A stretch of DNA of 64,000 nucleotides from a virus (IMGVR_UViG_3300022413_000352:2903-66902), one strand, 5' to 3'. Counted from the first letter of the stretch, positions 36,371-55,541 are shown. Made by a program: numbers and translations. Notes: generated by a model from the letters alone, not told the origin.

Positions 36371-36373
36371 GGC

Positions 36374-39061: not shown

Positions 39062-39206
39062 GCCATCCTTTTGAAATTACAGTGTGACTTACTACTATAT
39101 TTTATATGGCTAATACAAAAGGATGCAAACATTTACTACTCAATATTTTAGTTGTTTACCTACGCTTTTTGTGGTACCATTTTATACATTAGAGAAAGGT
39201 TTTCCT

Positions 39207-39419
39207 ATGACATTGGGTGAACGTCTACGGTTGTTACGTATGAGCCATGGATTGACACAAAATGACCTTGCACGTTTAGCTGGTGTAACACGTCCGTTGA
39301 TAAGTCGTCTAGAGCGGAACCAACGGGCTGGGATAAACCTTAAAACCGCAAGGTTATTGGCTCAAGCAATGAACATATCCATTGACGAGCTAGTGGGTGA
39401 TTCTCAAATAGTAGATTAA
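39207..39419 (+). CDS. XRE-family HTH regulator preceding the tra operon
   Basis: MTLGERLRLLR..LTQNDLA..ISRLE..LAQAMNISIDEL. Confidence 0.85.
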   Translation: MTLGERLRLLRMSHGLTQNDLARLAGVTRPLISRLERNQRAGINLKTARLLAQAMNISIDELVGDSQIVD

Positions 39420-39512
39420 TACTGCTGACCAGGAGCTACATGCCTGCAAAACCCGATCAGCAGCAAAGTAGAGTCTAAAGACTCATCTCATGATATCACA
39501 AGGAGTTACTCA

Positions 39513-39950
39513 ATGCACCAGTCTCGTAGCATCACATCTATCAACACCCTAATAGTGATCGCATCAATCATTCTAGTTGATACCGCCCTCGCATCCACAG
39601 GTGTGACGCCATCTCCGGGGCAAACCCCAGCTGCTGCTCAAACTGTGTTCTCAAGCTGGGATAGTATCGTGTCTTCAAATGTGATTCCATTGGGTGCATT
39701 AGCTGTCGGTATTGCTGCCATTTTTGCTGGCATTCGAGCTGGCAGTGGTGGACTTATTGGTGGTGGAATCATTGGGTTATTGGCTGCCATTCTTATGACA
39801 GCGCTACCTGCAATTGTTCAGGAAGGCGCAGCTGGTGCCTCATGGGGATTAGCCGCATCGGCACAGAGTAACATCCTCACAACCCTGCTGCCGTTCACTC
39901 TCGCGGTTCACGCCGTCGTGCGATACACCCGCCAGCGCTTGTTGGTATAG
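39513..39950 (+). CDS. Conjugative pilin-like protein (TraA/VirB2-like)
   Basis: Leader ending ALA, two Gly/Ala-rich hydrophobic helices; first gene of the tra cluster. Confidence 0.6.
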   Translation: MHQSRSITSINTLIVIASIILVDTALASTGVTPSPGQTPAAAQTVFSSWDSIVSSNVIPLGALAVGIAAIFAGIRAGSGGLIGGGIIGLLAAILMTALPAIVQEGAAGASWGLAASAQSNILTTLLPFTLAVHAVVRYTRQRLLV

Positions 39951-39952
39951 CT

Positions 39953-40273
39953 ATGGCATCTGCACTATGGAACAGCGCCCCAACACAGCAAGACGAGCCG
40001 TTGACGATCTTTGGTGGTTTGCGTGCAGTTGACGCTGCGCTCACGTTCTTTACGTTCTTCAGTTCATACATGTTACTACAGGCATTTACCACCTTGAGAT
40101 ACCTACTCGTGTTTGGGTCCGCCATCGGACTCAGTATCGCGTTCTATCTCGCGCTGTTAGGTGTCAGGCAGATTGGCCCCGACGGGTTTCATTGGTCGTT
40201 TCTGCACTGGTTTGGCGTTATACCGATTCGTGGCGCAGTACCAGCCAAAGGTGTAAAGCATGAACCTTTTTAA
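39953..40273 (+). CDS. TraL-like membrane protein
   Basis: DEPLTIFGG, two TM segments, PDGF..FLHWFG; position after pilin. Confidence 0.6.
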   Translation: MASALWNSAPTQQDEPLTIFGGLRAVDAALTFFTFFSSYMLLQAFTTLRYLLVFGSAIGLSIAFYLALLGVRQIGPDGFHWSFLHWFGVIPIRGAVPAKGVKHEPF

Positions 40274-40457
40274 TACTATCGATTTGGGATATGCGATTGT
40301 TGTTGCGGGTGCTATTAGCCTTGGGATGTCTATTGCGTTAACGGCATTTGCCGCAGTGTCTATCGTGTTCAGATTAGGCATCGGGATTATCATGGGGCTG
40401 ATCGTTTTGCGCCTCTTAGAAGCGATTGCAGCGGGAGACGTCCATGGACTTATTTGA
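40260..40457 (+). CDS. Small membrane protein
   Basis: 65 aa, two hydrophobic helices, overlaps both neighbours. Confidence 0.5.
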   Translation: MNLFNTIDLGYAIVVAGAISLGMSIALTAFAAVSIVFRLGIGIIMGLIVLRLLEAIAAGDVHGLI

Positions 40458-41109
40458 CACGTCTGCACCCCGTGAACATGCTAGAGCAATAGTGCTTATA
40501 TTTGCGCTAGTGCTCAGTATTGCAGGTAACGTCGTATCAGTCTTCTGGTACGGCGGTAAGACGATTCACTATATCCCGGTGACGTCAACGGGTGAAGTGG
40601 GCGCGATGCAAACCAGTCGTCCAGGTGAATTCCCGGTATCCATTCAACGCAACGTGGCAGAGCTAGTCGTCCTTACACTGGGCAACACGACGTCAGATAG
40701 CCTGATGGCGTCAATCCAAACGGTGCGCCCTTACCTTAGTCCTGCAACTTACACCGCGTTACATGCTCAAGGGACATCCGAAGTAAGCCCTATGCAAACC
40801 GCTGATATCTCAATCATGACGACTGATCTCAAGCTAGAAAACGTCGCTCCGGTTGGCTTGCTTAGGCGGTTTCGGTTTAGCGCCATGCGTCGTATGTATA
40901 GCTACGGTATGGCGCTCGATCCTCACCCAGTAACGGTTGTTGTTGACGTTATGCCGCCGCAGGTGGGCACAGGGCTCGCAAGCTCATTGCAGGTATCTCA
41001 TATCGCGTGGCCAGAACTGAAAATCAAGGATGGCAGCTTTCAAGATTTCAGTTTTACCGAACAATTAATCAATGCACATGTGCCATTTAGACGCGGAGTA
41101 ACAAAGTGA
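40444..41109 (+). CDS. TraE-like T4SS protein
   Basis: N-terminal TM, IHYIP, LTLGNTT..YLSP; L-E-K-B-V-C synteny. Confidence 0.65.
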   Translation: MDLFDTSAPREHARAIVLIFALVLSIAGNVVSVFWYGGKTIHYIPVTSTGEVGAMQTSRPGEFPVSIQRNVAELVVLTLGNTTSDSLMASIQTVRPYLSPATYTALHAQGTSEVSPMQTADISIMTTDLKLENVAPVGLLRRFRFSAMRRMYSYGMALDPHPVTVVVDVMPPQVGTGLASSLQVSHIAWPELKIKDGSFQDFSFTEQLINAHVPFRRGVTK

Positions 41110-41846
41110 TAAAACGCGGAGGGTTAGCAGCTCTTTTTCTGTGCATACTCACTACGACTCTATCCGCTCATGAAATCGAAGTGATGTATGATCGCCAAGA
41201 CGCCGTTAAAGTTGCCGTTCACTATAAGAAAATGACAACGATCGCCTTTTGGGATGTGGTCGCCAACGTGAGCACTACGATACCAGCAACGACGTTAGAT
41301 ATTCGCAAAGACGAGTTGTTCCCACATACGATTACCCTGTCCAATCTGAAAAAAAAGACGACTGGCACGGTATACGTAACGCTCGCTAGCGGGGTTGTGG
41401 TTCATATCGACATCCGGTACTGGGGTAGGATCACTCAGAAAGTTATTGTCAAAGACGCCCGTACAGAAGCTCAGAAGGCTGTACAACAAGCCAAAGCCAA
41501 AACCGGCATGACGATAGACGAGCGCACTCTTCGGACACTGTGGGCTGTCCAGTGGGGCCTGAAGACGGATACGAGCGTACAAGTCACCAAACAAAGCCAA
41601 CTACTCAACCGTAACGATCACCGTGAGGTCGTTTTGACCACAAGATACCAGACGGTGGGGTTTACTGGTTTTACTCAGTCTATCCACAACCGATCGTCTG
41701 AGCCAATCCAGATACACCCGGCAACCGTTACAACCGATTGTGATCTATTCAGTGTGAGCGTCGAAGGCGCGTATACGGTGCAGCCAGGACAACGGGCTGT
41801 GGTTCACATCGTATGCAAGGGAGCCACTCATGCCACGTTTCGCTGA
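41106..41846 (+). CDS. TraK-like outer-membrane core protein
   Basis: Signal peptide, beta-rich; C-terminal IHNRSSEPIQI..VQPGQRAVVHIV; synteny. Confidence 0.6.
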   Translation: MIKRGGLAALFLCILTTTLSAHEIEVMYDRQDAVKVAVHYKKMTTIAFWDVVANVSTTIPATTLDIRKDELFPHTITLSNLKKKTTGTVYVTLASGVVVHIDIRYWGRITQKVIVKDARTEAQKAVQQAKAKTGMTIDERTLRTLWAVQWGLKTDTSVQVTKQSQLLNRNDHREVVLTTRYQTVGFTGFTQSIHNRSSEPIQIHPATVTTDCDLFSVSVEGAYTVQPGQRAVVHIVCKGATHATFR

Positions 41847-42969
41847 GGCTTTCCTAAGGCTACTTTCTCACTGGATCACAGTTGTTGTCGGTATCGTGGT
41901 GATTACAGCAGCCGTGTTTGTCTATAACCGATCTGCTCAGAGCCAGGATACAACACCCTTAGCAACCTATCACACCGGTGGGTTGGCACCCAGTGAAGAC
42001 GCCGGTATTTTGGGCGGGATAGCGGCTCAACAACAAAAAACGGACGTGCTGACACGGCAACTACACGACATGAAAGCGAAGCTAGAGCAACTTGAGCGCA
42101 AACCCGATCCCCCATCGAACACTAAAGCGAATCAGTTGTTGCGGGAACAACTCAGAGCACTACAAGCCCAAGTCGCGCAAAACAACGCGCTTCGCAATAG
42201 GTCTACCCCGGCGCAGCTACCCCCTCAACCTCCGCCTGTTTCTGTGAGGGTTATTCAGGGTTCCCGCGCAGGCGTCACAGTGTCTAACCGGATTCAAGTA
42301 GCTGGAAATCGCGCTGCATCACCCACAGCACCTGCACCGTACTTACCCCCACAATCGTTTGCTAGGGGGCGCGTTAAGGATGGCTATACTGGACTCGCCA
42401 GTATCGAAACTTTCCCGGTGACGATTGAGGTAACATCCGCATTTAATGCGCCAAACGGGCACACTGTCCCACTCACGGGCTGCCGGTTTGGCGCGACTTC
42501 GACGCCTGAAGAACTGACGGCACGCGGGCGCTTAGCCCTAACCCGGATCACCTGCGTCAATGCCAACGGGATCACCATTGAACGTCCGATTTCAGGCTAT
42601 GTGACAGCCGCTGACAATATCAACGGACAGATTGCGCAAGTCTTTTGGCACGAGAGAGAAGTGGTGGCGGCATTCGCTAAGAGTGCGGTTCCGGCTGCTC
42701 TGGTCTCTCTCTTTAAAGAAACCCGCCGAGTGGTGGATGTTGCGACGCTTACTGGCGTTCTGGTGCAGTCGAGCAACACCGTAGCTCAAGAAGTGGCGGG
42801 GCGGATGGCGGATATCTACTTAGATAAGGCTGAGAAACTGGCGTCACCCATTATCTGGGTAGCGCCTGACACACCCATTTACATTTACATCACGCAAGGG
42901 GCACGGCTTGATGGGCTTCAAACAATCGAACCCACACGTGAGCCACTAGCCCGGAGGATTTTGAAATGA
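41830..42969 (+). CDS. traB: TraB/VirB10-like T4SS core protein
   Basis: TM, coiled coil, Pro-rich linker; YLPPQSFARG..PNG..LTGC..RITCV..ISGYV..DNINGQ. Confidence 0.8.
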   Translation: MPRFAEAFLRLLSHWITVVVGIVVITAAVFVYNRSAQSQDTTPLATYHTGGLAPSEDAGILGGIAAQQQKTDVLTRQLHDMKAKLEQLERKPDPPSNTKANQLLREQLRALQAQVAQNNALRNRSTPAQLPPQPPPVSVRVIQGSRAGVTVSNRIQVAGNRAASPTAPAPYLPPQSFARGRVKDGYTGLASIETFPVTIEVTSAFNAPNGHTVPLTGCRFGATSTPEELTARGRLALTRITCVNANGITIERPISGYVTAADNINGQIAQVFWHEREVVAAFAKSAVPAALVSLFKETRRVVDVATLTGVLVQSSNTVAQEVAGRMADIYLDKAEKLASPIIWVAPDTPIYIYITQGARLDGLQTIEPTREPLARRILK

Positions 42970-43427
42970 TACGGTATCTGATTCTCATTCTAGGCGTACT
43001 CGCTTTAATGCCAGCTTGTGCCAAGTACAATACTCATCTTGGGCGGGTGAATCACGACAACAGCCCATTCACGTCGTCACAACAGGGCGCTGCAAGCGTG
43101 TCGTACGGCGGTGCGCCTATCAATATCGTGCCCCAATTGGTTTTGCCCATTACTCGTACTGTTTGGATCAAAGGGCATCGACGCCCGAATGGCGATTACG
43201 TAGGTGATTACCCCCTGACAATCGTATTTACACAGGGGCAATTTGAGCACGTACAGAAACAGAACCCAGTCATTCCGCAATCTATTTCACTAGCTGATGG
43301 TTACCACGAACCAGGCAAGGCAATAACGGATCGCCTACCGACTATGACGTTACCTACAGGTGCCCAGTTACAGGGTGTCATTGAAGCCACCAAATCGCGA
43401 TTAGGGGCTGCCAATGATACCAAGTAA
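42966..43427 (+). CDS. TraV-like lipoprotein
   Basis: LMPAC lipobox; TVWIKGHRRPNGDYV resembles the TraV RVWI..GD motif. Confidence 0.65.
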   Translation: MIRYLILILGVLALMPACAKYNTHLGRVNHDNSPFTSSQQGAASVSYGGAPINIVPQLVLPITRTVWIKGHRRPNGDYVGDYPLTIVFTQGQFEHVQKQNPVIPQSISLADGYHEPGKAITDRLPTMTLPTGAQLQGVIEATKSRLGAANDTK

Positions 43428-45840
43428 TATGTTGCTACCCTATGGCACGATGCTGGACGACAAAGGTATTGTGTTGCTTCACAGACCTGCTAAGTTTGGA
43501 CCGCTTAGCCGATTTGCCTTAGGTTGTGTGTTTGAGGTAACGCCCCTGGATATCGATCTACTTTCAGAAAGCGAAGTGGAACGAGCAGCGGCAGACGTCA
43601 AAGCGCTTATCTTAAACTTGAAGCCGTCGGCAATCCTAGACGTACGGTTGGATATGCGCCCCATTACGAACGTTCCGGCATGGGACAAGGCTCACGAAAC
43701 GCAGCATGATCCCGATACACAGCTTGTGCGTGAGCACATTGCCAATGGGATGCCCCACACGCCAGGCGCTAGCCCGATGCGGCTTACTGAGTGTAAAGTG
43801 ACGATTGGCTACCGCTACCCTCTTAAAGGCAATACCCGGCAGATACGCCAAATCTTAGACGTCCTAGCTCAGATTAAACCGTGGGGTAATGCGGCAGCGG
43901 CAACGGTATTGAAAGAGCGCCTAGAAGCCGAGTTTAACGAACAGCTTGTGGCGTTTGAATCCACAGTTACCGGTATCGAGAGATCCTTGCGCCTATTGGA
44001 TCTTACCCCGGTTCGACTGGATGGTACTGGGCTTATCAGTGCACTCAACCGGGCGGCGGGGCCAGATGCGACAGCGCCCACTGTGTACGACCCGGATATG
44101 AGTATTGGTGAGCAAATACATGTACCGTACGATCTGGGTGATACAACTATAAAAACGGTCAATCATACCGCTACCGTCTACACGTTAGAGCGCAGTGCAG
44201 CCGATGCGTTTGCTGGCATTCTGGGCGCATGTCGCACGCCTGAGGTAAATGTACACGGGTTGCCACTCGGTGAATTGGGTACACCGCTCTCCATTGCAGT
44301 GACAATCATGGTTAAGGATCAAGCCAGGAAGCGTACCACGTTATCGCTCAAGCACAGTCTAGCAAACTTGCTCAAGGTGGGTGGGCTGGGTGAAGAACGG
44401 AAAGACGCTGAACAGCAAGTAGACGCTCTCGGTGAACTCATTGCAGCCATGGCAGACGGTAGTGAGCAAGTACACGACGCGATGGTAAGTGCAGTGCTGT
44501 GGACCCGAAATGGTGAGACCCTCACTGATAGTCTATTTCAGAAAATGTCGTTGGACATGGCGATACACTGGTATAAAGAGCCGTTTATCGCCAGCACGTT
44601 ATTCTTACGTGGTTTACCGATTGGGTGTGATCCCGGCTTTCCAAATGAAAACTTCGTGCGTCGCTCACGTCAGATTGCGACTCGTACACTTGCCCGCTTA
44701 GTGCCGCTGTGGGGCGCATTCCAGGGAAGCCGAACCCCAACCGCGCTTTATGTGAACCGTCGCGGCGAGCCTGTGTTCTTTGATTTGTTCGATCGCACGG
44801 GTACCCCTCATATGACGATTGTGGGCAAGTCCCGGCGGGGAAAGTCAGCTTTTCTCAATACCTATATTAATCAGATTAGCCCGGACGACTACCTCGTCTA
44901 TATTCTTGATCGATATGGCTCATACGACGAAATGGCACGCCGTCGAAAGGGTAAGCTGGTTAAGTTTAACGCCACAACTCCAATTTGTATTGGTCCTATG
45001 GAAGGCGCTTTAGACGCACGCCACTGTCAGCATATGGCAATGATTATTGAAGAAATGGCAATGGCAGGCTTTCAGGATCAACACGTAAGCCCGGACGAAC
45101 GAACGCTGATTGGTAATTACATTCAAGACTGGGCGCTCAAGGGGCCGACAGCTCAAACCATGTCTGACTTTGTGGCGTACTTAGGCAGCAATGGTGATAC
45201 ATTTGCCAGACAGCTACAACTACTACTAGGTCCGTATATCAAGGATGGACGGTATGCCCCGTTTATCGACGGACCCAATCAATTGGGCATTGCCGACAGC
45301 TCGTTTTGGGTAGCGGATATCGCCGGATTAGAGGACTTTCCCGAACTACAGTCGATCATTATCGCATCTCTATTTACCTCACTTGAGCGGCATATCACAA
45401 ACTCGGATCTAATGAATATCCGTAAAATTCTCGCAGCCGATGAGGTGTCTTTCCTGATACGCAACCCACAGGCGGCAGAGTTCTTGCGCAAGTTGGCTGT
45501 TGCTCTGGCGCGGTTTTTTGCGTCGTTTGTCCTGATCTCACAATCGATGAGTGATTTTTTAACCGATCTGGGATCAGCCGCTGTAAAGATGAGTGATACC
45601 CATATCTTTTTTAACCTTGGACGACAAGAGCTTCATGAAATATCCGAAGTTTTTAAGCTGTCGGAGCACACGGCTGACTCAATTGTAAGCCTGCGTAAAT
45701 ATGAGGATTGTTCAGAGTGTGTCATCCGCTTTGAAGAAGGTGAAGGCGGTGCGGGAATCATTCGCGTGGTACCGCCACCCGAGTTTATCCAAGCCATAGG
45801 GCAATCTGAAGCCCATAGAGCGGCCAGAGGAGTTGTCTGA
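43414..45840 (+). CDS. traC: VirB4/TraC conjugative ATPase
   Basis: NRRGEPVFFDLF; Walker A GKSRRGKS; ILDRYGSY; Walker B ILAADE; ISQSMSDF. Confidence 0.9.
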   Translation: MIPSNMLLPYGTMLDDKGIVLLHRPAKFGPLSRFALGCVFEVTPLDIDLLSESEVERAAADVKALILNLKPSAILDVRLDMRPITNVPAWDKAHETQHDPDTQLVREHIANGMPHTPGASPMRLTECKVTIGYRYPLKGNTRQIRQILDVLAQIKPWGNAAAATVLKERLEAEFNEQLVAFESTVTGIERSLRLLDLTPVRLDGTGLISALNRAAGPDATAPTVYDPDMSIGEQIHVPYDLGDTTIKTVNHTATVYTLERSAADAFAGILGACRTPEVNVHGLPLGELGTPLSIAVTIMVKDQARKRTTLSLKHSLANLLKVGGLGEERKDAEQQVDALGELIAAMADGSEQVHDAMVSAVLWTRNGETLTDSLFQKMSLDMAIHWYKEPFIASTLFLRGLPIGCDPGFPNENFVRRSRQIATRTLARLVPLWGAFQGSRTPTALYVNRRGEPVFFDLFDRTGTPHMTIVGKSRRGKSAFLNTYINQISPDDYLVYILDRYGSYDEMARRRKGKLVKFNATTPICIGPMEGALDARHCQHMAMIIEEMAMAGFQDQHVSPDERTLIGNYIQDWALKGPTAQTMSDFVAYLGSNGDTFARQLQLLLGPYIKDGRYAPFIDGPNQLGIADSSFWVADIAGLEDFPELQSIIIASLFTSLERHITNSDLMNIRKILAADEVSFLIRNPQAAEFLRKLAVALARFFASFVLISQSMSDFLTDLGSAAVKMSDTHIFFNLGRQELHEISEVFKLSEHTADSIVSLRKYEDCSECVIRFEEGEGGAGIIRVVPPPEFIQAIGQSEAHRAARGVV

Positions 45841-47090
45841 TGCACCGCACTGTTATTGCGCTCATTCTGTTAGCTCTCAGCGCTCATGCCGTGGTTGCTC
45901 AAACCATATTCGAGGAAGGGCTTAACGCCAACCTATCAGGCATAAGCGTGACACACAATCCCAATTACTTCAGGGGATCGCTAAACTTCGACCCGATCCT
46001 ACCCCCAAACCGCACCACATTATTTCGCGGGCGGGCAGAGTCCGGTGATTTTTGTAACTTCGATTTAGTGGCGACGATGTTCCAAGAATTCGCTGAGCTG
46101 CCCGGTTTGCTGATTGAGCTGTTGCCGCTGATTATTGCGGGGATCGGCATCCACTTTCTATGCGCCACGTTCCCAGAGCAGTGCTCGTTGATGAAGGATA
46201 TTAAGAACTACGCCAATCTCGTTTTACGGTTTCAACGGGCTAGTTGTAATGAAGTAGTCGAGTCTGCGATGTATGGCGGAGTTGAGGCGAGTAACAGTGC
46301 CCTGGGCGAATGTTTCCGTGACGCCGCCCCAGGCGAATCAAGTCAAGCGGTATGGCGTCGCTGTCGTGAAGATCGCGGCGGCTTTATCCCACTACCAAAT
46401 GGCGGTAGAGGAACGGAAGTTGACGTGATTGCCATAATTCTAGAAACGGCTGGCGTTCCCCCTGAAGATGCAGCTCGAATCCAAGGGTATACGGGATCAT
46501 TTACGATCTTCTCCCAGGGTAACGTTTTCTCAACCGCGAAGACTGCCCCAACAGAGTCGGCAATCACTTACTATGCTGCTCGAAAAGAGGAATTTGCCGA
46601 GACGGTGGCTGAATTGGTGTCGGATGCCGTAGGTGGCAATCAACCGTCTGCTGAGCAACTCGCGGGGGTATCCGTTCCTGGTACGCCGTTACCTGTGGCA
46701 GCAATCGACTCTATAGCGGGTGAGCGCAACGCCACGATGCGAGCCTATAAATCTCAGGCATTAGCAGCACAACTGGCACTGGCTAGGTCCAAGTGGGACT
46801 TGACTGAGGACTTGCACAAGCTTGAGAAAGCGATACAGGCTTCTGAGATCACGCCGGATCAAGCCAAAGTAGCGCACTTGGCACTCGCCAACTTTAAGCA
46901 TGAGATTAACCGGTTAGAAGAGCTAAAAAAGATCGTCGATGAGCACTACCGCCCGGCTGTCGAAGGCTTGCTAGAAGCACGGGCGAATCAATTGCTAGAG
47001 GCGACGATCGCATCTGCACAGGTTCAGCCAACGCAGAATTCCGCCAGCCGTTATCCGGATGGTCAAACCTCATTCGGTTACTCACAATAG
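45840..47090 (+). CDS. Secreted conjugation protein (TraH-like / ICE periplasmic family)
   Basis: Signal peptide; CNFD..P..C..L..ASC Cys pattern; position between TraC and TraG-like. Confidence 0.5.
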   Translation: MHRTVIALILLALSAHAVVAQTIFEEGLNANLSGISVTHNPNYFRGSLNFDPILPPNRTTLFRGRAESGDFCNFDLVATMFQEFAELPGLLIELLPLIIAGIGIHFLCATFPEQCSLMKDIKNYANLVLRFQRASCNEVVESAMYGGVEASNSALGECFRDAAPGESSQAVWRRCREDRGGFIPLPNGGRGTEVDVIAIILETAGVPPEDAARIQGYTGSFTIFSQGNVFSTAKTAPTESAITYYAARKEEFAETVAELVSDAVGGNQPSAEQLAGVSVPGTPLPVAAIDSIAGERNATMRAYKSQALAAQLALARSKWDLTEDLHKLEKAIQASEITPDQAKVAHLALANFKHEINRLEELKKIVDEHYRPAVEGLLEARANQLLEATIASAQVQPTQNSASRYPDGQTSFGYSQ

Positions 47091-47099
47091 GTTAACACT

Positions 47100-47540
47100 A
47101 TGTTTATATTCCCGTTAACCCTATCAGAGGCAAGCGGCACCTTCGTTGGGCTGGAAGCCCAGGCACTGATTCGTTCAGCCCTTGGACCTGCACCGGCCCT
47201 AGTAATCTTATCGGGTGCGGCATTTATCGGGCTTGGAATGATACGGGGGCACCGTCGGCTAGTTGATCTTGCGTTTTATCTGTTCGCCAGTTTACTCACG
47301 CTCTCTTTGATATGGCCCGCATCGTCTTCCGTTTCCCCCTCAGATGTGCAATCACAAGCAGCGTCAGGGCAAGCCATTCAAGACGCATCGGGTTTGCTAC
47401 CAGGGCGAGCGGGGTTACAAATTCCAAGGGTAGAGGTGGAATTGCTGCGGGCCATATCGGGTATGTGGGTAAACGTTGCCAGAGCAATTAACAGCGACGG
47501 GGATCGCCCCTTCAGTGAAGTTGCCCGATCTCGTGGTTGA
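47100..47540 (+). CDS. TraG_N-like protein, N-terminal part (possibly frameshifted)
   Basis: Two TM helices; overlaps the next ORF in the -1 frame. Confidence 0.5.
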   Translation: MFIFPLTLSEASGTFVGLEAQALIRSALGPAPALVILSGAAFIGLGMIRGHRRLVDLAFYLFASLLTLSLIWPASSSVSPSDVQSQAASGQAIQDASGLLPGRAGLQIPRVEVELLRAISGMWVNVARAINSDGDRPFSEVARSRG

Positions 47541-48493
47541 TGCGTCAAGGCTTGTCTGGGGAGGCAACGGCACTTATTCGGGAATGGACATCAGCGTGCG
47601 TGATGCCAGCTCGCAAACGACTCTTAGACAGAGGCGGCGGTGCCAACTCAGAAGAGTTGCTGCCGTTCCCTGGTAGCGCCTTGCATGGCGTCATGGGCGA
47701 TATCACCGTGCAAATGGGCAATGACTTTATCCTGTGTGGTCCCCAATCGGATGTGATCATGACGGTGGCGAGAACTGAAGTCGAAGGATTCTTGTCACCC
47801 GGCGGAAACAGTATGAGCCAGATATGGTCATCAGAGCTTAGTATTGCCCCGGCTGAAGTGGTGAAGTTTCTCATCATGCGGGAGGTAAGAAGAGCCAGTG
47901 GGCCAGAAATACAACCCGTATCATTAACGGGGCTCTATGCGACCATGCGTGTCATCACATCGATGAGCGGCGGGATCAAGGATGCAGCGATCGGCACATT
48001 AAATTTACAAGGCGGCGATGTCTTAGCTGGATTAGGTAGCGCGTTGACAGGTGGGGTATCGAGTGCCGTATCTGATCTCGCGGTTTCAGTCCAGGCTCTA
48101 GTTGGAAAAGCACTATTTGTCACTAAGTTTAGCAGTGACATTGTGGGCGTTTTGCAGGCGGTGATCTTGGCTGTTTTCCCATTTGTGGCGCTAGTGGCTC
48201 TAACCCCCGGCAAGCATATCCTTACACTGGTTTCCTACGTTTATTTGCTTGTGGCGATTTACTCAATGCCGTTTGCATGGGCACTTGTAGATCTGCTCTC
48301 TGATATCGCGCTGTCGCAAGCTGGTAGCCTTACCCTTGTTACGAACCCAGTAGTAACCCTTGAAGCAATGGCATCCGCGTTAATCATTGTTACGATAGGG
48401 ACTTGGGTTGCCCTGTTCGGTTTAGCGTTTGCGATTCTACTGCCTATTGCTGGCGGGGCTTCTATGGTAATTCGTGGTGCAAGAGGAGTGTAA
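47537..48493 (+). CDS. TraG_N/VirB6-like polytopic protein, C-terminal part
   Basis: IREWTSACVMPAR; LQAVILAVFPFV..WALVD; several TM helices. Confidence 0.65.
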   Translation: MMRQGLSGEATALIREWTSACVMPARKRLLDRGGGANSEELLPFPGSALHGVMGDITVQMGNDFILCGPQSDVIMTVARTEVEGFLSPGGNSMSQIWSSELSIAPAEVVKFLIMREVRRASGPEIQPVSLTGLYATMRVITSMSGGIKDAAIGTLNLQGGDVLAGLGSALTGGVSSAVSDLAVSVQALVGKALFVTKFSSDIVGVLQAVILAVFPFVALVALTPGKHILTLVSYVYLLVAIYSMPFAWALVDLLSDIALSQAGSLTLVTNPVVTLEAMASALIIVTIGTWVALFGLAFAILLPIAGGASMVIRGARGV

Positions 48494-48495
48494 AA

Positions 48496-48891
48496 ATGTT
48501 GGAACAAAAAACATTCTACGATAAGAATCACACGGCATGGTTGAACCGCCCCGGACCCGCTAGAGGATTCCCATTATGGTGGTTATTTATCTATGCGTTC
48601 ATTCCCGGACAAGTGATCCGCCTGCTACTCAGTCAACCGTTCTGGGTTGGATTGGCGATTTCATCTGTTGTAGCGCTCGCCCTGCTGGTGGTTTGCGCGT
48701 ATGTCAGTTTCGCGTGGCGTGTCAACCAAACGTGCCCCGAATGCCAAACTACGAAAACGAGAGGATATACACGATGTTCAGGTTGTGGTTACCCGTCTTC
48801 ATGGTCGTCGGATTCGTCACAGCCGCAGACGCGCAAGAGTCCTGTGTATTCGCTGGACACGCGATCCCGTGCACGGTTGAAACGAGTGTAA
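48496..48891 (+). CDS. Membrane protein with zinc ribbon
   Basis: GAGGAG RBS; two TM segments; CPEC..CSGC. Confidence 0.55.
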   Translation: MLEQKTFYDKNHTAWLNRPGPARGFPLWWLFIYAFIPGQVIRLLLSQPFWVGLAISSVVALALLVVCAYVSFAWRVNQTCPECQTTKTRGYTRCSGCGYPSSWSSDSSQPQTRKSPVYSLDTRSRARLKRV

Positions 48892-49262
48892 CCACAGGCG
48901 AATCGATTACCCTTGAGCCGATCACTAAAACGGATTGGCAATTCCTTGAGCGTGATATGGCTCGCGACGCCACAGCCTTACACGCTGAACTTTTGAACAA
49001 CACAACGTTAGAGAATGCCAAACGCTATGCGCTATCTGAGATTTACCGACAATACAGGGGCATGCAAGCCATGAAGCTAGCCACCTACGTCCGGGCTCAG
49101 ATCATGGCGCAAATGCGGGCTAAGTACGGCGATCTCGATGAGCTTGGGTTGATTGAAGCGGCAGTAATTGAGTCCGGAATGCCCGTTATCAGTGTCCCCG
49201 ATTTGGTAAAGACGCTGAAGCCTGGTGATCTCATGCGCGCAGGAGTGCCCAATGGTCAGTAG
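48774..49262 (+). CDS. TraF N-terminal-like secreted protein
   Basis: GAGGA RBS; signal peptide; LLNNTTLENAKRY resembles TraF NPT.ENV..Y. Confidence 0.45.
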   Translation: MFRLWLPVFMVVGFVTAADAQESCVFAGHAIPCTVETSVTTGESITLEPITKTDWQFLERDMARDATALHAELLNNTTLENAKRYALSEIYRQYRGMQAMKLATYVRAQIMAQMRAKYGDLDELGLIEAAVIESGMPVISVPDLVKTLKPGDLMRAGVPNGQ

Positions 49263-49692
49263 CTATGTGATAGCCGCGCTCTTAGCTAGCACGTGTCCAA
49301 CCGTACCGCATGAACTTGTCCACGCCATTGTAGCAGTTGAATCCTCAGGCGATCCCTACGTGCTGAATGTTGGCGTTGGGAGTACCTGGAAAGCGTATCG
49401 CTTCGATGACATTGACGATGCAAAGGTGTTTTTACAGGCGGCGTTGCAAGTTACTCAAAACGTCGATATCGGGTTGATGCAAGTGAATTGGAAGTGGTGG
49501 GGTAAACATATTGGAGTTACGGCTAGCGAGTTACTCGACGTACCCACGAACCTGCGGGTGGGGTGCGATATCCTCAGTCGGGAATTAGCGGGTAAGGGTC
49601 CATTGTGGCAAAGGATTGGGCGTTACCATAGCCGTACGCCATGGCGGAATGAACAGTATGCGTTAAAGGTGATTCATGAGACGATCCGCTAG
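49252..49692 (+). CDS. Lytic transglycosylase (VirB1-like SLT)
   Basis: AIVAVESSG; DIGLMQVN; NLRVGCDIL; IGRYHS. Confidence 0.9.
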   Translation: MVSSYVIAALLASTCPTVPHELVHAIVAVESSGDPYVLNVGVGSTWKAYRFDDIDDAKVFLQAALQVTQNVDIGLMQVNWKWWGKHIGVTASELLDVPTNLRVGCDILSRELAGKGPLWQRIGRYHSRTPWRNEQYALKVIHETIR

Positions 49693-50656
49693 TCTGTTAA
49701 CCCTGATACTGTGCCTATCCAGTAACGCATATGCTCAGTTGGACTTCACCACGCTGATTAATCCCGCGTGTGCTGACTTCAAAGTGTTGGGCAGTTGCTC
49801 TTGTACCAATGTCCTACAGTTTGACCAGGTTTGCACCCGTGTGTCTTACCATCAGCCAAAACTACTTATTGAGACGGTTCCAATCCCCGGTGATACCTAT
49901 TTAGGCGGCATCCTTTCGCCCGCATTGCTTGTCGGACTTGTGACAGCTGGCGAAGCTCTGGCGTTTGCCGGTGGATCGGGTGCTGCACCGCTTGACTCTG
50001 GGCACAACCAACTGAGCTTTAGAGAAGCCCATGTATTCACAATCCCGCCAATCTTCCCGTATGGGTGTAACGCTTGTGATGAACAAGGTGAGCCAGAGCC
50101 GACTACCGTCACCTTAAACTACGCATCCGAATTGGACTTTCCAAACTGGCGTTATTTACCTGACGGAATCGCTCAACCACTGCCAATCGCTGGCTTATCT
50201 CTCGCCGGTGTTTGGGGTAGTTTGTACCCACGGACGGGTAAATCAGCCCACGATAGTCCCCCGGTTGCTGCTGCATTAATGGCATGGCGAGCTGCAACAA
50301 TCGCCTACAACCCAGCGCCAGGACCAGGAGGTATTGTACCTCATACAGTCCTCCAACCCGCTATTGGCATTCCCCCTGTCTGCTTTCAGTGCGCTAAGCC
50401 AACGCTTTCCAAGTGTGGATTGGTAGGAATGAACCCGTTGCACTGGCAGCTTGAGAAAGTTGAACCACGGGGGCGCAACGTTTTCATTCTATGGGAAAGG
50501 CGCATTTGCTGTGTCGATCCATCCACGGCAGCATGCGGGCTTGCAGGGCTTGCGGTAACTGGTGGGGGTGCTGATAATTTTTGTGACATTCCATATGACC
50601 CCGTATTCGGTATTGTCCCCGGTATGCCCATAGATATCCCATTCGATGGGCACTAA
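49676..50656 (+). CDS. traU: TraU-like protein
   Basis: Signal peptide; Cys-rich; VSYHQP..IETV; YASELD..WR; WGSLYPRTG; ILWER..CC. Confidence 0.75.
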   Translation: MRRSASLLTLILCLSSNAYAQLDFTTLINPACADFKVLGSCSCTNVLQFDQVCTRVSYHQPKLLIETVPIPGDTYLGGILSPALLVGLVTAGEALAFAGGSGAAPLDSGHNQLSFREAHVFTIPPIFPYGCNACDEQGEPEPTTVTLNYASELDFPNWRYLPDGIAQPLPIAGLSLAGVWGSLYPRTGKSAHDSPPVAAALMAWRAATIAYNPAPGPGGIVPHTVLQPAIGIPPVCFQCAKPTLSKCGLVGMNPLHWQLEKVEPRGRNVFILWERRICCVDPSTAACGLAGLAVTGGGADNFCDIPYDPVFGIVPGMPIDIPFDGH

Positions 50657-50999
50657 TGTGAACCCAATACAAGCCATATTCACAGAGAAATACAGCCACC
50701 TAGTAGCTCTCTCAGGCGCACGACTCACGCTGCTTATCCCTTACCTGTGGTTCTTGTTACTTGTGGTTATCGTCGGTGGATACGAGGGCAATGACTGGCG
50801 CAGACAACGACTTTATGCGGGCTACTACCGCTTGATCTTAGCCACTGCCACCATACTCTTTGTGGGTATGCTAGTCGCACTCGGAGCATGGTTAATTATG
50901 CCCAGTCTGATGCAGCCACACATAACAGCCATTGGCTTAGCTGTAATCGGGTTTGCACTCGGTTGGACAGCAATGGCTGGGCGTCCGGTAATGAGGTAA
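50646..50999 (+). CDS. Conjugation-associated membrane protein (DUF4400-like)
   Basis: Three TM segments; GGYEG..RR; directly upstream of traD. Confidence 0.45.
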   Translation: MGTNVNPIQAIFTEKYSHLVALSGARLTLLIPYLWFLLLVVIVGGYEGNDWRRQRLYAGYYRLILATATILFVGMLVALGAWLIMPSLMQPHITAIGLAVIGFALGWTAMAGRPVMR

Positions 51000-51001
51000 A
51001 A

Positions 51002-52789
51002 ATGTCCATTACAATCCCGTTTCCCAATCGTCAACTGTTAATCGAGTTTGGCTTTATCATTGCAGTGTGTGCGATCGCATTCATAGTTGTACTGCCGATG
51101 CTCGATGTCTTTCCTTACGGACATGCATTCTTCATTGCTTGGCTATTCTGGAGAGCACACTGGGTCGCTAAACAACTACTGATGCGCGGTAGCTGGATGA
51201 ACCCGCAATCAGCCAAACCGTTACCCGTTAAACCCAACCCAAATGGCATTGTACTCGGCGATGGTTTTACTTGGACAGGTGACCACGTGGACGCTATTCA
51301 GCGCTATGTGCATGTCGCCAAATCGCTACCACAAGATGATGGTAAGCGCGGTGGATCGCCTGCGATTCACGGCTGCGGTTCTCACCGCGATCGCTCAGTC
51401 ATTTTGCCCTATGAACGGCTGCGTAGTCACGTGGCTATTGAGGGCTCAACCCAGAGCGGAAAGACGGTGCTACTCGCCAACATGATTAGCCAAGCCATTG
51501 CGATTAACCAGGGTGCGGTAGTTATCATGGATCCAAAAGGTAGCGATCAGCTCTACTACACGGCAAAGGCAATGGCTGAACGCTGTGGGCGCAAGTTCGC
51601 GTTAATTCGCCCGCGAACACCCTTGCTTAGTTCTCGGTTTAACGTGTTATCGTCATGCGAGGAAGCTGTTGATATGCCGGGGCGGTTGCGCCCGATCTTC
51701 CCTGAAGGCCGTGAAGCGTATTTCAAGGAAGAACCGTTATCCATTTGGCTGAGAGTCGCTGCTATGCACAAGGCGCTGGGGATCACATGGGATATTCGCG
51801 ATATCCATAACGCCGTGATGGATTTAGACACGCTACGCTGGACACTGGCGCAGTATATGGCGCTCAAAGGCATTGGCTTTAGAGGATTACGCCGTACAGA
51901 TATGCCCGACGTTGATATGCTGAAAAATAAGTATGTCGAGATGGGAAAAGACGATCCGTTAATTCCCGGTATTCTGCGGCCGCTAACCCGTAAACAAGAA
52001 ACTCATCAAGAGCGCTGCGGCAACTTAGACGTCGCGCTTAGTGGTGTGGTGGACATCGAGCACGCTGAAATATTTGGAGCACAAGACGCACTCACTTGGC
52101 GGGACATTGACGAGGGCAACATGGTTGTAATCTTTCGCACCGATTCACTCGTCACCCAACAGATCGGGCGCAACATCGCGTCTCTGTTCTTCCAGGATTT
52201 CATGGGCTATATGGGGCTGCGGTACCTCACGAGCGGAACCAGTCGTATTCCAATTACAATGTTCGTTGATGAAGTTGGCGAGATCGTTTATCCCGACTTT
52301 CGGCAAGCAATCAATAAGGTGGGTGAGGCCGGTGGGCGTCTTATCCTCACATGGCAAACTAAATCCGATCTGGATGCCACGCTTGGGAAGTTCCAGGCGG
52401 ATGTGATCCGGGCGAATTGTCAATCGCGGATCACCATGCGGATTGCGGATGATGAGACCGCCGATATTCTATCGAGACAATCACCTAAAGTTCGAGTAAC
52501 TCGGCTTACAGGTAACCGATCCATGTTGATGGGATCAAACTCTGGTAAGGGTATATCTGTCGAGCACGAGGATGTGCCTCTACTCGAAGCAAACATTTTA
52601 CAAGGGCAACAGGTAGGGCAAGGATTCTTCAGATTAGATGGATCGCTATTCCATTTTAATATTCCATTTTCTGAAAGTGAGGTACCCAATGACTCAACGC
52701 CTACTAATAGTTTTAGTTACTCTATTTGTACTCAGTGCTTGCAGTGGCTCAGGTGGTTTGGACGATCAAGACTTTCCTCAAACTCGTGA
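51002..52789 (+). CDS. traD: Type IV coupling protein (TraD)
   Basis: N-terminal TMs; LGDGFTW..GSPAIHG; Walker A GSTQSGKT; IMDPKG; FVDEVGE..INKVGEAG..WQTKSDL. Confidence 0.88.
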   Translation: MSITIPFPNRQLLIEFGFIIAVCAIAFIVVLPMLDVFPYGHAFFIAWLFWRAHWVAKQLLMRGSWMNPQSAKPLPVKPNPNGIVLGDGFTWTGDHVDAIQRYVHVAKSLPQDDGKRGGSPAIHGCGSHRDRSVILPYERLRSHVAIEGSTQSGKTVLLANMISQAIAINQGAVVIMDPKGSDQLYYTAKAMAERCGRKFALIRPRTPLLSSRFNVLSSCEEAVDMPGRLRPIFPEGREAYFKEEPLSIWLRVAAMHKALGITWDIRDIHNAVMDLDTLRWTLAQYMALKGIGFRGLRRTDMPDVDMLKNKYVEMGKDDPLIPGILRPLTRKQETHQERCGNLDVALSGVVDIEHAEIFGAQDALTWRDIDEGNMVVIFRTDSLVTQQIGRNIASLFFQDFMGYMGLRYLTSGTSRIPITMFVDEVGEIVYPDFRQAINKVGEAGGRLILTWQTKSDLDATLGKFQADVIRANCQSRITMRIADDETADILSRQSPKVRVTRLTGNRSMLMGSNSGKGISVEHEDVPLLEANILQGQQVGQGFFRLDGSLFHFNIPFSESEVPNDSTPTNSFSYSICTQCLQWLRWFGRSRLSSNS

Positions 52790-53084
52790 GCAAGAGTTTG
52801 CTGAGGAAGCGCTGTTTCGTGCGCTGGATCGGGTTGAAGTAAGTTGCGAAGTTGTAAGCTGTCACGGTGATGGAATTCATACAGAAGTGGTTGATCTTGT
52901 TTTCAACAATATCAATGCGACGTGCCAGCAACGCTGCATGCGAGTCGAAGTCGCCGGAGAAGAGCCGCGACACTATTATGCATGGTTGGTGTGGCGGCGG
53001 ATTCCAAATACCTGCTACCACGCTGAAAAGTATGAGGTTCTGTTGATGAAAGAAGTACCTGTAATCTGTGTCGAAACACACTGA
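52689..53084 (+). CDS. Lipoprotein at the end of the tra operon (entry-exclusion candidate)
   Basis: GAGG RBS; LFVLSAC lipobox; TC..RC..RHY..WRR. Confidence 0.65.
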   Translation: MTQRLLIVLVTLFVLSACSGSGGLDDQDFPQTREQEFAEEALFRALDRVEVSCEVVSCHGDGIHTEVVDLVFNNINATCQQRCMRVEVAGEEPRHYYAWLVWRRIPNTCYHAEKYEVLLMKEVPVICVETH

Positions 53085-53581: not shown

Positions 53582-53599
53582 ACGGCTACCTCCAACTGT

Positions 53600-54165: not shown

Positions 54166-54174
54166 TTAACTTCC

Positions 54175-55335: not shown

Positions 55336-55370
55336 GAGGGCACCTATGCGGTTTAGTGATTGAATATAAC

Positions 55371-55484: not shown

Positions 55485-55541
55485 AATCGTTGAAAATCCC
55501 ACCTTAACTATATTTTACTCAAACGTTGTAATTATATCAAC

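What the first reader, a model, noticed from the sequence alone, without database searches (positions are those of the whole stretch)
39207..53084. Tailed phage genome carrying a near-complete conjugative T4SS operon: candidate conjugative phage
Seen: a tightly coupled plus-strand operon (XRE, pilin-like, TraL/E/K/B/V-like, VirB4/TraC, TraH-like, TraG-like, TraF-like, SLT, TraU-like, DUF4400-like, TraD). It ends 8 bp from the last head-operon gene and is flanked by apparently intact head, tail, lysis and replication modules. I see no ICE integrase or att-like repeats at its edges. Known: this gene set and order resembles MPF_F/MPF_G systems of F-like plasmids and ICEs, which are not normal phage cargo. 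Inference: one replicon may spread both as a virion and by cell contact, or may use a T4SS for another purpose such as effector delivery or adhesion.
Basis: partly seen in the sequence, partly recalled or inferred. Interest (0 to 1): 0.92.

Follow-up and report, generated by a model that had tools for sequence, protein, structure and literature searches.

The report
Tailed phage carrying F-like secretion operon
An uncultured tailed virus from sediment carries, inside an otherwise complete virus genome, an intact-looking set of bacterial mating-machine genes but no recognisable DNA-nicking enzyme, so it may spread by cell contact as well as by particles, which has not been reported.

Summary
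Window 39123-53084 is a tightly coupled plus-strand operon. It encodes an XRE regulator, TraK/VirB9, TraB/VirB10, TraC/VirB4, a TraG_N-like protein, SLT/VirB1, TraU and a TraD-type coupling protein. The labels TraL, TraE, TraV, TraH, TraF and DUF4400 could not be verified.

The operon sits in a 66.9-kb virus record with terminase, portal, capsid, tape measure, J-like tail tip, endolysin and primase-helicase. The contig ends split one repeat-bearing gene, so the map most likely closes on itself.

The block has the phage's composition: GC3 is 0.51, against 0.77 in its nearest retrievable relative. That relative sits beside an integrase fragment, not phage genes. Both junctions fall between intact genes.

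No relaxase, integrase, ParA/ParB, Rep3 or S24 repressor was found, so "conjugative" is not shown. No relative among 80 TerL-related viral loci has the block.

Chimeric assembly is disfavoured but not excluded, because read support is thin at depth 1-4. This scan noted phage-plus-T4SS cases before on other DNA. A 2025 review states that none is known.

The parts
39123..39419 (+). XRE-family HTH regulator at the head of the operon. It is transcribed divergently from the secreted fn3 protein gene.
   Evidence: Pfam HTH_3, 54 bits against a cut-off of 23. A promoter-like site lies at 39071-39098. It has no homologue in L001.
39513..39950 (+). Pilin-like small membrane protein with a leader and two hydrophobic helices (inferred).
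   Evidence: No family hit. Hydrophobic segments at residues 4-22, 51-69 and 76-94. The L001 counterpart shares only a short conserved stretch.
39953..41109 (+). Three small membrane proteins (106, 65 and 227 aa) in the positions of TraL/VirB3 and TraE/VirB8. Their identities are not verified.
   Evidence: No family hits. One, three and one hydrophobic segments respectively. The 106-aa and 227-aa proteins are 61% and 62% identical to L001 orthologues.
41106..41846 (+). TraK/VirB9-type outer-membrane core-complex protein with a signal peptide.
   Evidence: AF2 model pLDDT 82.8. Foldseek hits 7spb_C1 at E 5.8e-13 and 7oko_3 at E 2.6e-11, then R388 TrwF/VirB9-containing entries. Only 8 relatives among 1.84 billion representative proteins.
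41830..42969 (+). TraB/VirB10.
   Evidence: Pfam TrbI, E 4.1e-8, 33.7 bits against a cut-off of 35. NCBIfam F-type TraB, E 5.5e-10.
42966..43427 (+). Small envelope protein with a hydrophobic N-terminus followed by Cys (TraV-like lipoprotein, inferred).
   Evidence: Topology only. 46% identical to its L001 orthologue.
43414..45840 (+). TraC/VirB4 ATPase.
   Evidence: PF19044, 61 bits. TIGR02746 TraC-F-type 184 bits, ahead of VirB4_CagE at 91 and traC_PFL_4706 at 64. Walker A and B residues are invariant across 7 homologues. PDB VirB4 4ag5, E 5.5e-6.
45840..47090 (+). Secreted 416-aa protein of unknown family, in the position of TraH.
   Evidence: No Pfam or NCBIfam hit. None of its 9 homologues carries a Pfam domain. 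The AF2 model was poor at pLDDT 48.8.
47100..48493 (+). TraG_N/VirB6-like polytopic membrane protein, split in this assembly into ORFs of 146 and 318 aa by a one-base frame change near 47524.
   Evidence: TraG_N, E 0.0033. The L001 orthologue is a single 466-aa ORF. A contig from run X1 reads one more C at 47524 than the record does.
48576..49262 (+).
   Evidence: No family hit. 54% identical to its L001 orthologue.
49225..49692 (+). Lytic transglycosylase (VirB1-type).
   Evidence: Pfam SLT, 29.4 bits against a cut-off of 21.3. NCBIfam VirB1, E 2.2e-9.
49676..50656 (+). TraU, with a signal peptide.
   Evidence: Pfam TraU, 58.8 bits against a cut-off of 26.5. TIGR03756, E 1.7e-7.
50646..50999 (+).
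   Evidence: No family hit. Hydrophobic segments.
50888..52789 (+). Type IV coupling protein of the TraD type. The true start is probably near 51002.
   Evidence: TraG-D_C 53.4 bits, TrwB_AAD_bind 47.8 and T4SS-DNA_transf 41.2, all over their cut-offs. SXT_TraD 186 bits. Its best plasmid relatives are annotated TraD at 22.6-24.3% identity.
52638..53084 (+). Terminal lipoprotein of the operon (lipobox LSAC). A candidate exclusion protein by position only.
   Evidence: Lipobox. 40-46% identical to its L001 orthologue. A distant paralogue lies at 33972-34361 (25% identity, E 7e-7).
53093..61139 (-). Phage head and packaging module: terS, terL, portal, head morphogenesis protein, a 283-aa protein in the position where phage R5C has its scaffolding protein, major capsid protein and three small downstream genes.
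   Evidence: PHROGs hits: terS 2.1e-16, terL 1.4e-30, portal 2e-87, head morphogenesis 3.1e-40, MCP 3.8e-55. The MCP is 36-39% identical to those of Dinoroseobacter phages R5C and R26L and Pseudanabaena phage Pan1.
629..21823 (-). Phage tail module: tail chaperones, tape measure protein, J-like central fibre and a large beta-helix protein.
   Evidence: PHROGs hits: tape measure 9.3e-31, chaperone 1.3e-6, J-like fibre 1.3e-78, and chaperone-like protein at 21338-21823 on the plus strand, 3.1e-15.
22128..36625 (.). Phage DNA-metabolism, lysis and early genes: RNase_T exonuclease, M15 endolysin, primase-helicase, DUF3102-like protein, RecT and HNH.

Best explanation
This is a real, essentially complete siphovirus genome of about 66.8 kb with a circular map. 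It acquired the mating-pair-formation plus coupling-protein module of a rare, deeply divergent F-like T4SS lineage, and has kept it long enough for its composition to match the phage's. That lineage otherwise sits in ICE-like or large bacterial replicons.

The module is a 17-gene operon with its own XRE regulator. It is transcribed convergently to the head genes, so it is probably controlled apart from the lytic late operon.

Proposed mechanism (inferred): in an infected or carrier-state diderm host, the operon builds an envelope-spanning channel and pilus from TraK/TraB with a putative TraV in the outer-membrane core, TraC as ATPase, a TraG_N-like protein, TraU and SLT. The TraD coupling protein feeds a substrate into it.

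The most likely substrate is DNA. It would be processed by a relaxase that is either supplied in trans by another element in the host or is one of the roughly 25 unassigned phage ORFs.

Shown: the gene content, the intactness, the purifying selection and the compositional fit. Inferred: expression, assembly, substrate and benefit.

My odds: the block is truly part of the phage genome, about 0.8. It is functional, about 0.6. It moves the phage genome itself, about 0.2.
For: One replicon.
- The contig start encodes the N-terminus and the contig end the C-terminus of one protein with 21-aa repeats, across near-identical 63-bp repeats (144 of 145 nt). The map therefore closes with no host flanks.
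- Both junctions fall between intact genes. The right one is an 8-bp gap, and the left one is a promoter-like AT-rich spacer.

Composition.
- The T4SS block correlates with the phage segments in tetranucleotide usage at r 0.61-0.77. Phage segments correlate with each other at 0.62-0.80.
- It correlates at only 0.50 with its homologous L001 block. Against 38 unrelated loci the best value is 0.58 and the median 0.39.
- GC3 of TraC, TraD and TraB is 0.51-0.52, against 0.48-0.55 for phage genes and 0.77 for L001 TraC.

Intactness and constraint.
- Sixteen of 17 ORFs have collinear L001 orthologues at 46-74% identity.
- pN is 0.19-0.45 while pS is 0.66-0.90, which is saturated. dN/dS is 0.12-0.27 for the 3 genes where it could be computed.
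- The single frameshift is contradicted by a contig from run X1.

Reads.
- All 51 laid contigs of X1 and all 17 of X2 are >=99% identical to the record.
- They cover T4SS and phage pieces at similar word depth. In X1 the listed T4SS contigs are at 2.85-3.8 and the phage contigs at 2.7-4.5.
- None runs on into unlike sequence.

Origin of the module.
- Homologues of TraC (7) and of the 416-aa protein (9) lie on contigs of up to 133 kb and 209 kb.
- L001 carries the block beside an integrase N-terminal domain and no phage gene.
Against: - No relaxase was found. Seven of 7 Pfam relaxase families gave no match at E<=1, and no 3-His or HUH motif was seen.
- No integrase, resolvase, ParB, ParA, Rep3 or S24 repressor was found. 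Neither a donor state nor DNA processing is evident.
- The combination is a singleton. None of 80 IMG/VR loci with related TerL (37-50% identity) has any T4SS gene. None of the 40 whole records I searched has a VirB4.
- Read support is thin, at depth 1-4, and no bridging contig was listed.
- IMG/VR classes the record as linear and CheckV rates it 79% complete. If that is right, genes may be missing.
- TraG_N is split in the record as deposited.
- All T4SS family scores lie below NCBIfam's curated cut-offs.
Confidence: 0.6

Rival explanations
1. Chimeric metagenome assembly. A phage and an ICE or plasmid of the same host, or of hosts with similar composition, were joined by the assembler, so no single molecule carries both.
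For: - Coverage is low, at word depth 1-4 in both runs.
- No contig is shown bridging either junction. The bin 38953-39603 is only partly covered.
- The record is a singleton: its proteins occur on 1 contig only.
- The block's relatives occur without phage genes.
- No phage relative carries it.
Against: - Two separate joins would be needed inside one closed map. No repeat shared between junctions was found.
- Both joins fall exactly between intact genes and truncate no ORF.
- Composition and GC3 match the phage rather than the known relatives.
- Depth is similar for both parts in two runs from two studies.
- None of the 68 laid contigs runs on into unlike sequence.
- A distant paralogue of the operon's last gene lies in the phage early region.
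Confidence: 0.13
2. The T4SS is functional but does not transfer DNA. It makes a pilus or adhesin, delivers phage or host proteins to neighbouring cells, or provides exclusion. This would help the phage by cell aggregation, by manipulating neighbours or by blocking rivals.
For: - No relaxase or oriT is recognisable in the phage or in the 22.4 kb of L001 examined.
- The conserved unit shared by both elements is the mating-pair-formation genes plus T4CP only.
- The operon ends with a lipoprotein. A secreted fn3 protein is transcribed divergently from the same control region.
Against: - The coupling protein's nearest named relatives are TraD proteins of conjugative plasmids. Of 1209 matched plasmid records, 1068 are predicted to be conjugative.
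- From recalled knowledge, F-like systems are known mainly for DNA transfer or DNA release.
- No effector-like gene is identified.
Confidence: 0.17
3. Inert cargo. The block was captured by illegitimate recombination and is on its way to decay, with no role for the phage.
For: - The TraG_N-like gene is split in the deposited sequence.
- There is no relaxase.
- 14 kb is a heavy load for a capsid-limited genome.
- No relative carries it.
Against: - Seventeen of 18 ORFs are intact and their tight start-stop coupling is preserved.
- The one frameshift differs in an independent contig.
- GC3 has shifted by about 0.25 from that of its relatives to the phage's value without loss of the reading frames. 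That implies long residence under selection.
- Phages with related capsid proteins have genomes of 72-80 kb, so capacity is not exceeded.
Confidence: 0.1

Closest known systems
F-type (MPF_F) conjugative T4SS of F, pED208 and SXT/R391-type elements
   Same: The gene order runs pilin-like, small membrane proteins, TraK, TraB, small lipoprotein-like protein, TraC. TraU, a TraG_N-like protein, SLT and a TraD-type T4CP are present. The best NCBIfam models are TraC-F-type, F-type TraB and SXT_TraD. The TraK fold matches the F-plasmid core complex entries 7spb and 7oko. No VirB11 was seen among the 18 ORFs scanned.
   Different: All scores are far below the curated cut-offs (184 against 567, 186 against 366). 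TraH, TraF, TraN and TraW are not recognisable. There is no relaxase or oriT. The T4CP is at most about 24% identical to plasmid TraD. The lineage is very rare: 7 TraC homologues among 5.8 billion clustered proteins in a word-limited search that scored 8000 candidates, and 8 TraK relatives among 1.84 billion representatives read in full. It also sits in a phage.
The ICE-like element on metagenome contig L001, which carries the nearest retrievable relative of the block
   Same: Sixteen of 17 operon ORFs are collinear at 46-74% amino-acid identity. An HTH_3 regulator lies upstream in both, although the two regulators are not homologous.
   Different: L001 has 59% GC and GC3 of 0.77. Its flanks hold a Trans_reg_C regulator, proteins of unknown family and an integrase N-terminal domain, and no phage gene. 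None of its flanking proteins has a homologue in the window.
Phage-plasmids (P1, N15, SSU5 and others)
   Same: They are hybrids of phage and plasmid-type functions on one replicon.
   Different: Phage-plasmids are defined by plasmid replication and partition genes, which were sought here and not found. [quoted passage not shown]
Phage-ICE tandems and conjugative megaplasmids that carry prophages (PMC13651849 and PMC12934698; search listings and abstract starts only)
   Same: Phage and conjugation genes travel together.
   Different: Those are accretions of separate, separately delimited elements, or prophages riding on plasmids larger than 300 kb. Here the T4SS has no integrase, att sites or relaxase of its own and lies within a 66.8-kb phage map.
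Dinoroseobacter phage vB_DshS-R5C (Nanhaivirus) and Pseudanabaena phage Pan1
   Same: These are the closest cultured phages by major capsid protein, at 36-39% identity over 99-100% of its length. Both are siphovirus-type.
   Different: In R5C the capsid, adaptor, tail tube and tape measure genes are contiguous. Here 32 kb, which includes the T4SS, separates the capsid cluster from the tail cluster. TraC matched neither phage: only two unannotated 'Bacteriophage sp.' records matched it.

Membership tests
Conjugative system (MPF + T4CP + relaxase, CONJscan logic as I recall it) | VirB4/TraC ATPase | tested here: met
   PF19044, 61.2 bits against a cut-off of 25.8. TIGR02746, E 3.4e-54.
Conjugative system (MPF + T4CP + relaxase, CONJscan logic as I recall it) | Type IV coupling protein | tested here: met
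   PF12696, PF10412 and PF02534 are all over their cut-offs. SXT_TraD, E 1.3e-54.
Conjugative system (MPF + T4CP + relaxase, CONJscan logic as I recall it) | Relaxase | tested here: not met
   PF03432, PF08751, PF07514, PF01076, PF03389, PF02486 and PF13814 gave 0 matches at E<=1 in six frames of the whole record. No 3-His or HUH motif was found in 247 open frames. A novel relaxase is not excluded.
Conjugative system (MPF + T4CP + relaxase, CONJscan logic as I recall it) | oriT | not testable with these tools
   No oriT library was at hand. Inverted repeats in the intergenic regions are not above chance.
MPF_F (F-like) type | F-type accessory proteins TraU, TraK, TraB and TraV | tested here: met
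   TraU, 58.8 bits. TraK by fold. TraB, E 5.5e-10. TraV is inferred from a lipoprotein-like N-terminus only.
MPF_F (F-like) type | TraH, TraF, TraN and TraW | tested here: inconclusive
   No family hit for any ORF. The model of the 416-aa candidate was too poor to search with.
Tailed phage (Caudoviricetes, siphovirus type) | Terminase, portal, major capsid protein, tape measure, tail tip and endolysin | tested here: met
Phage-plasmid | Plasmid replication initiator or partition genes | tested here: not met
   PF02195 and PF01051 gave 0 matches. PF01656 gave only a 9.9-bit P-loop fragment in the primase-helicase. Only these three families were tried.
ICE inserted in a phage | Integrase or recombinase and flanking att repeats that delimit the block | tested here: not met
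   PF00589 and PF00239 gave 0 matches. No edge repeats beyond short, chance-level ones of 14-27 nt.

The most novel reading that the evidence does not exclude
A tailed phage that also passes its own genome to neighbouring cells by contact. It would use a self-encoded F-like secretion machine and a DNA-processing enzyme unlike any known relaxase, or a phage replication or packaging protein recruited by the coupling protein. That would make it a true conjugative phage, able to reach cells that lack its receptor.
Probability: 0.18. Interest if true: 0.95.

Novelty: new variant of a known kind. Interest (0 to 1): 0.78.

Why it matters
Virion transfer and conjugation are treated as alternative routes of gene mobility. 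[quoted passage not shown]

A complete phage genome with an intact, long-resident mating-pair-formation and coupling-protein operon would show that the two machineries can coexist within one capsid-limited genome. It would also give a concrete object for testing contact-dependent phage spread, host-range escape from receptor dependence, and relaxase-independent or trans-relaxase use of a T4SS.

Separately, it documents a very rare and deeply divergent F-like T4SS lineage. This lineage is missed by curated family cut-offs, so current conjugation detectors would probably overlook it.

Tried and rejected
I could not see the contigs that encode the closest TraC homologues (P0002 and P0005, the latter on a 133-kb contig) or the closest TerL (P0010, 66% identity, on a 23.8-kb contig).

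Single-protein scans of viral contigs with TraC, MCP and T4CP found nothing. The TraC alignment found nothing there either.

Megablast of the block against phages and against plasmids gave no match.

The genome-contig scan gave only distant VirB4 proteins at 22-24% identity, in Sutterella, Duodenibacillus and Solirubrobacterales assemblies. This gives no clue to the host.

Candidate relaxases:
- The 420-aa early protein looks DUF3102-like (atlas score 0.95, a lead only).
- The 271-aa protein gave only unreliable leads at 0.76-0.81, among them Rep3 and RepC.
- Neither protein has a PDB relative, nor does the 517-aa protein of L001.

Structures and folds:
- The model of the 416-aa 'TraH-like' protein was too poor to search with.
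- Profiles A3 and A4 found nothing meaningful in PDB sequences.
- TraB found nothing in PDB sequences. The T4CP found only IcmO/DotL at E 0.0098.
- The TraK model found no convincing match among viral predicted structures (best E 4.5e-4, TM <=0.22).

Sequence features:
- No iterons or clear origin repeats in five intergenic regions.
- No tRNA genes and no Rfam family.
- Promoter-like and terminator-like sites are not above the shuffled expectation.

Reads. Parts of the stretch had no cover in run X2, and only partial cover in one X1 bin. I draw nothing from those gaps.

Rejected reading. I considered that the contig is an 84-kb genome missing 21%, as CheckV's 79% would imply. I judged it less likely than closure, because the two ends complete one gene.

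Papers. Supplementary Table 3 of preprint 10.64898/2025.12.20.690322 lists potential phage-plasmids, and the text mentions 'conjugative phage-plasmids'. It may bear on the novelty claim and I have not seen it. The claim that a phage-borne T4SS is not in print rests on searches, and on passages of PMC12282955 and PMC7969092.

Full report
WHAT IS THERE

The window is bases 2903-66902 of a one-contig virus record of 66,902 bases. IMG/VR classes the record as linear, and CheckV rates it 79% complete.

Between 39123 and 53084 lie 18 plus-strand ORFs. Most neighbours overlap by 1-38 nt or lie 2-9 nt apart. Three gaps are 82-93 nt. The two largest overlaps, of 112 and 152 nt, come from upstream start calls.

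Family searches confirm the following:
- an XRE regulator (HTH_3, 54 bits);
- TraB/VirB10 (TrbI 33.7 bits, cut-off 35; F-type TraB E 5.5e-10);
- TraC/VirB4 (PF19044 61 bits; TIGR02746 184 bits, cut-off 567);
- a weak TraG_N match (E 0.0033);
- SLT/VirB1 (29.4 bits);
- TraU (58.8 bits);
- a coupling protein (three Pfam T4CP domains over their cut-offs; SXT_TraD 186 bits, cut-off 366).

The 246-aa protein upstream of TraB gave no family hit. It has only 8 relatives among 1.84 billion representative proteins. A model built from 7 sequences reached pLDDT 82.8. Its best structural matches are F-plasmid outer-membrane core-complex chains, 7spb_C1 at E 5.8e-13 and 7oko_3 at E 2.6e-11. Legionella, Xanthomonas and R388 core-complex chains follow, and the R388 entries are described as TrwF/VirB9. 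I read this protein as TraK/VirB9. The tool does not name the matched chains, so that label is an inference.

Pilin-, TraL-, TraE- and TraV-like identities rest only on size, order and hydrophobic segments. The TraH, TraF and DUF4400 labels are unverified.

THE SURROUNDINGS ARE A PHAGE

On the minus strand, 61139-53093 encodes terS, terL, portal, head morphogenesis protein and major capsid protein, followed by three small genes. The tail module at 21288-629 encodes a tail chaperone, tape measure protein and a J-like central fibre of 1938 aa.

Between these two modules lie:
- an RNase_T exonuclease;
- an M15 peptidase endolysin, over its cut-off;
- a primase-helicase;
- a plus-strand early operon with a DUF3102-like protein (a lead only), RecT and HNH.

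The capsid protein is 36-39% identical to those of Dinoroseobacter phages R5C and R26L and of Pseudanabaena phage Pan1. Their genomes are 72-80 kb, so 66.8 kb is within the capacity of related capsids.

In R5C the capsid, adaptor, tube and tape measure genes are contiguous. Here they are 32 kb apart.

IS THE MAP CLOSED?

The first 145 nt of the contig equal its last 145 nt at 144 positions, within an array of 63-bp repeats.

On the minus strand, the contig start encodes a start codon directly after the previous gene's stop, then a short N-terminus, then 21-aa repeats that run off the contig. The contig end begins in the same repeats and continues into DUF2341 and LamG domains. One gene is therefore cut by the contig break, and the genome most likely closes at about 66.8 kb.

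This matters because it leaves no room for host flanks, or for missing genes beyond repeat units. CheckV's 79% speaks against closure. I give closure about 0.85.

IS THE BLOCK PART OF THE PHAGE?

Four lines say yes.

(a) Junctions. On the right, TGA at 53082-53084 is followed by 8 bases and then the stop of the convergent gene. On the left, a promoter-like AT-rich spacer lies between the divergent fn3 gene and the XRE gene. No ORF is truncated at either side. The last operon gene aligns to the end of its L001 orthologue.

(b) Composition. Tetranucleotide usage of the block correlates with the four phage segments at 0.61-0.77. The phage segments correlate with each other at 0.62-0.80. The block correlates at only 0.50 with its homologous block in L001. 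Against 38 unrelated loci the best value is 0.58 and the median 0.39.

GC3 of TraC, TraD and TraB is 0.51-0.52. Phage genes are at 0.48-0.55, and L001 TraC is at 0.77. L001 and L002 have 59-60% GC, and the block has 51%.

(c) Reads. Logan contigs of two runs from two studies were laid on 37000-56500. All 51 contigs of X1 and all 17 of X2 were >=99% alike. They covered T4SS and phage pieces at similar word depth, and none ran on into unlike sequence.

(d) Paralogue. The last operon gene has a distant paralogue in the early operon, at 25% identity and E 7e-7.

Three things speak against. Depth is only 1-4. The table of contig pieces was cut, so no bridging contig is shown. X1 may be the source sample. 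A phage and a plasmid of the same host would also share composition, so line (b) does not exclude a chimera by itself.

WHERE THE BLOCK COMES FROM

TraC has 7 homologues at 52-72% identity among 5.8 billion clustered proteins, in a word-limited search that scored 8000 candidates. The 416-aa protein has 9. Some lie on contigs of 133, 159 and 209 kb.

The one long relative I could fetch, L001, comes from a 27.9-kb metagenome contig. It holds the operon collinear from the TraL-like gene to the terminal lipoprotein. Sixteen of 17 ORFs have orthologues at 46-74% identity. Its flanks carry a Trans_reg_C regulator, an HTH_3 protein, proteins of unknown family and an integrase N-terminal domain. They carry no phage gene and nothing homologous to the rest of the window.

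Synonymous sites between the two copies are saturated (pS 0.66-0.90), while pN is 0.19-0.45. dN/dS is 0.12-0.27 for the 3 genes where it could be computed. The genes have therefore been under purifying selection since the split. The data cannot assign that constraint to the phage branch.

THE ONE DEFECT

The TraG_N-like gene is two ORFs here, of 146 and 318 aa, and one 466-aa ORF in L001. A contig from run X1 reads one more C in the C run at 47524 than the record does. The split may therefore be an assembly error or a population variant.

WHAT IS MISSING

Six-frame searches of the whole record found no match at E<=1 for seven relaxase families: PF03432, PF08751, PF07514, PF01076, PF03389, PF02486 and PF13814. 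They also found none for tyrosine or serine recombinases, ParB, Rep3_N or the S24 peptidase. CbiA/ParA matched only a 9.9-bit P-loop fragment in the primase-helicase.

The method itself finds what is present. The TraC profile recovers the TraC gene in the same record, and the control genomes matched.

A scan of 247 open frames found no 3-His or HUH motif.

By the usual definition the element is therefore not shown to be conjugative. It is also not a phage-plasmid, not an ICE, and not evidently temperate.

RELATIVES AND PRECEDENT

- None of 80 IMG/VR loci with related TerL (37-50% identity, up to 10 kb of flank) has a match to any of the 18 block proteins. Eighty had TerL, 20 had portal and 5 had MCP.
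- None of the 40 whole records I searched has a VirB4. These were the loci from the longer contigs among the 80, and 8 of them are at least 90% complete.
- Among 50,697 phage records, TraC matched two unannotated 'Bacteriophage sp.' fragments, at 27% identity over 38% of its length and 33% over 12%.
- The T4CP matches 1209 plasmid records, all below 60% identity. The 15 listed rows are at 22.6-24.3%. Of the 1209, 1068 are predicted to be conjugative.

[quoted passage not shown] The 2021 phage-plasmid survey searched phages with CONJscan, but the passages I saw report no conjugative phage (PMC7969092). A search for the phrase 'phage-encoded type IV secretion' found no paper, and 'conjugative phage' found 5 with passing mentions.

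Earlier notes of this scan describe phage-plus-T4SS cases on other DNA. One note calls its case monoderm-type and another compares its case to FATA-type ICEs. I did not test them.

READING

The best-supported account is a genuine siphovirus that captured the mating-pair-formation and coupling-protein module of a rare F-like T4SS lineage, and has kept it under selection long enough for its composition to match the phage's.

The operon has its own XRE regulator and runs opposite to the late genes. Control apart from lysis is therefore plausible, though this is inferred.

The operon most likely builds a working channel and pilus and exports a substrate chosen by TraD. Because TraD's relatives serve DNA transfer, DNA is the most likely substrate, with a relaxase supplied in trans or not yet recognised.

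Whether the phage genome itself is the cargo is open. I give that about 0.2.

The rivals are a chimeric assembly, a use other than DNA transfer, and inert cargo.

Noticed in passing
window 63400-64000 and G000:C1:1-320 (outside the window): An array of 63-bp (21-aa) tandem repeats lies in a DUF2341/LamG fibre-like protein. The contig breaks inside this array. That probably explains why the record is classed as linear and 79% complete although the two ends complete one gene.
   Followed up: yes
window 47520-47530: The TraG_N-like gene is split by a one-base frame change in a run of C. A contig from run X1 reads one more C than the record, and the L001 orthologue is a single 466-aa ORF.
   Followed up: partly
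window 21288-53093: The capsid cluster and the tail cluster are 32 kb apart, separated by replication, lysis and early genes and the T4SS. In the distant relative R5C they are contiguous.
   Followed up: partly
window 37277-39061 (-): A 594-aa protein with a Sec-type signal peptide and an fn3 domain is transcribed divergently from the XRE gene of the T4SS operon. It is absent from L001, and its role is unknown.
   Followed up: partly
window 33972-34361 and 52638-53084: Two distantly related lipoproteins (25% identity, E 7e-7). One lies in the early operon and the other ends the T4SS operon.
   Followed up: partly
G000:C1:1105-1500 and 1921-2310 (outside the window): An internal duplication of about 397 nt at 88% identity, in the region of the minus-strand genes just upstream of the window.
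   Followed up: no
phage records MT835823.1 and MT835634.1: Two unannotated 'Bacteriophage sp.' fragments from faecal samples encode VirB4-like stretches (27% and 33% identity to parts of TraC). I did not check whether they are phages.
   Followed up: no
window 31107-32369 (+): A 420-aa early protein resembles DUF3102 proteins of phages and plasmids by language-model features (score 0.95, 26 of 30 hits). It has no Pfam or PHROG hit.
   Followed up: partly
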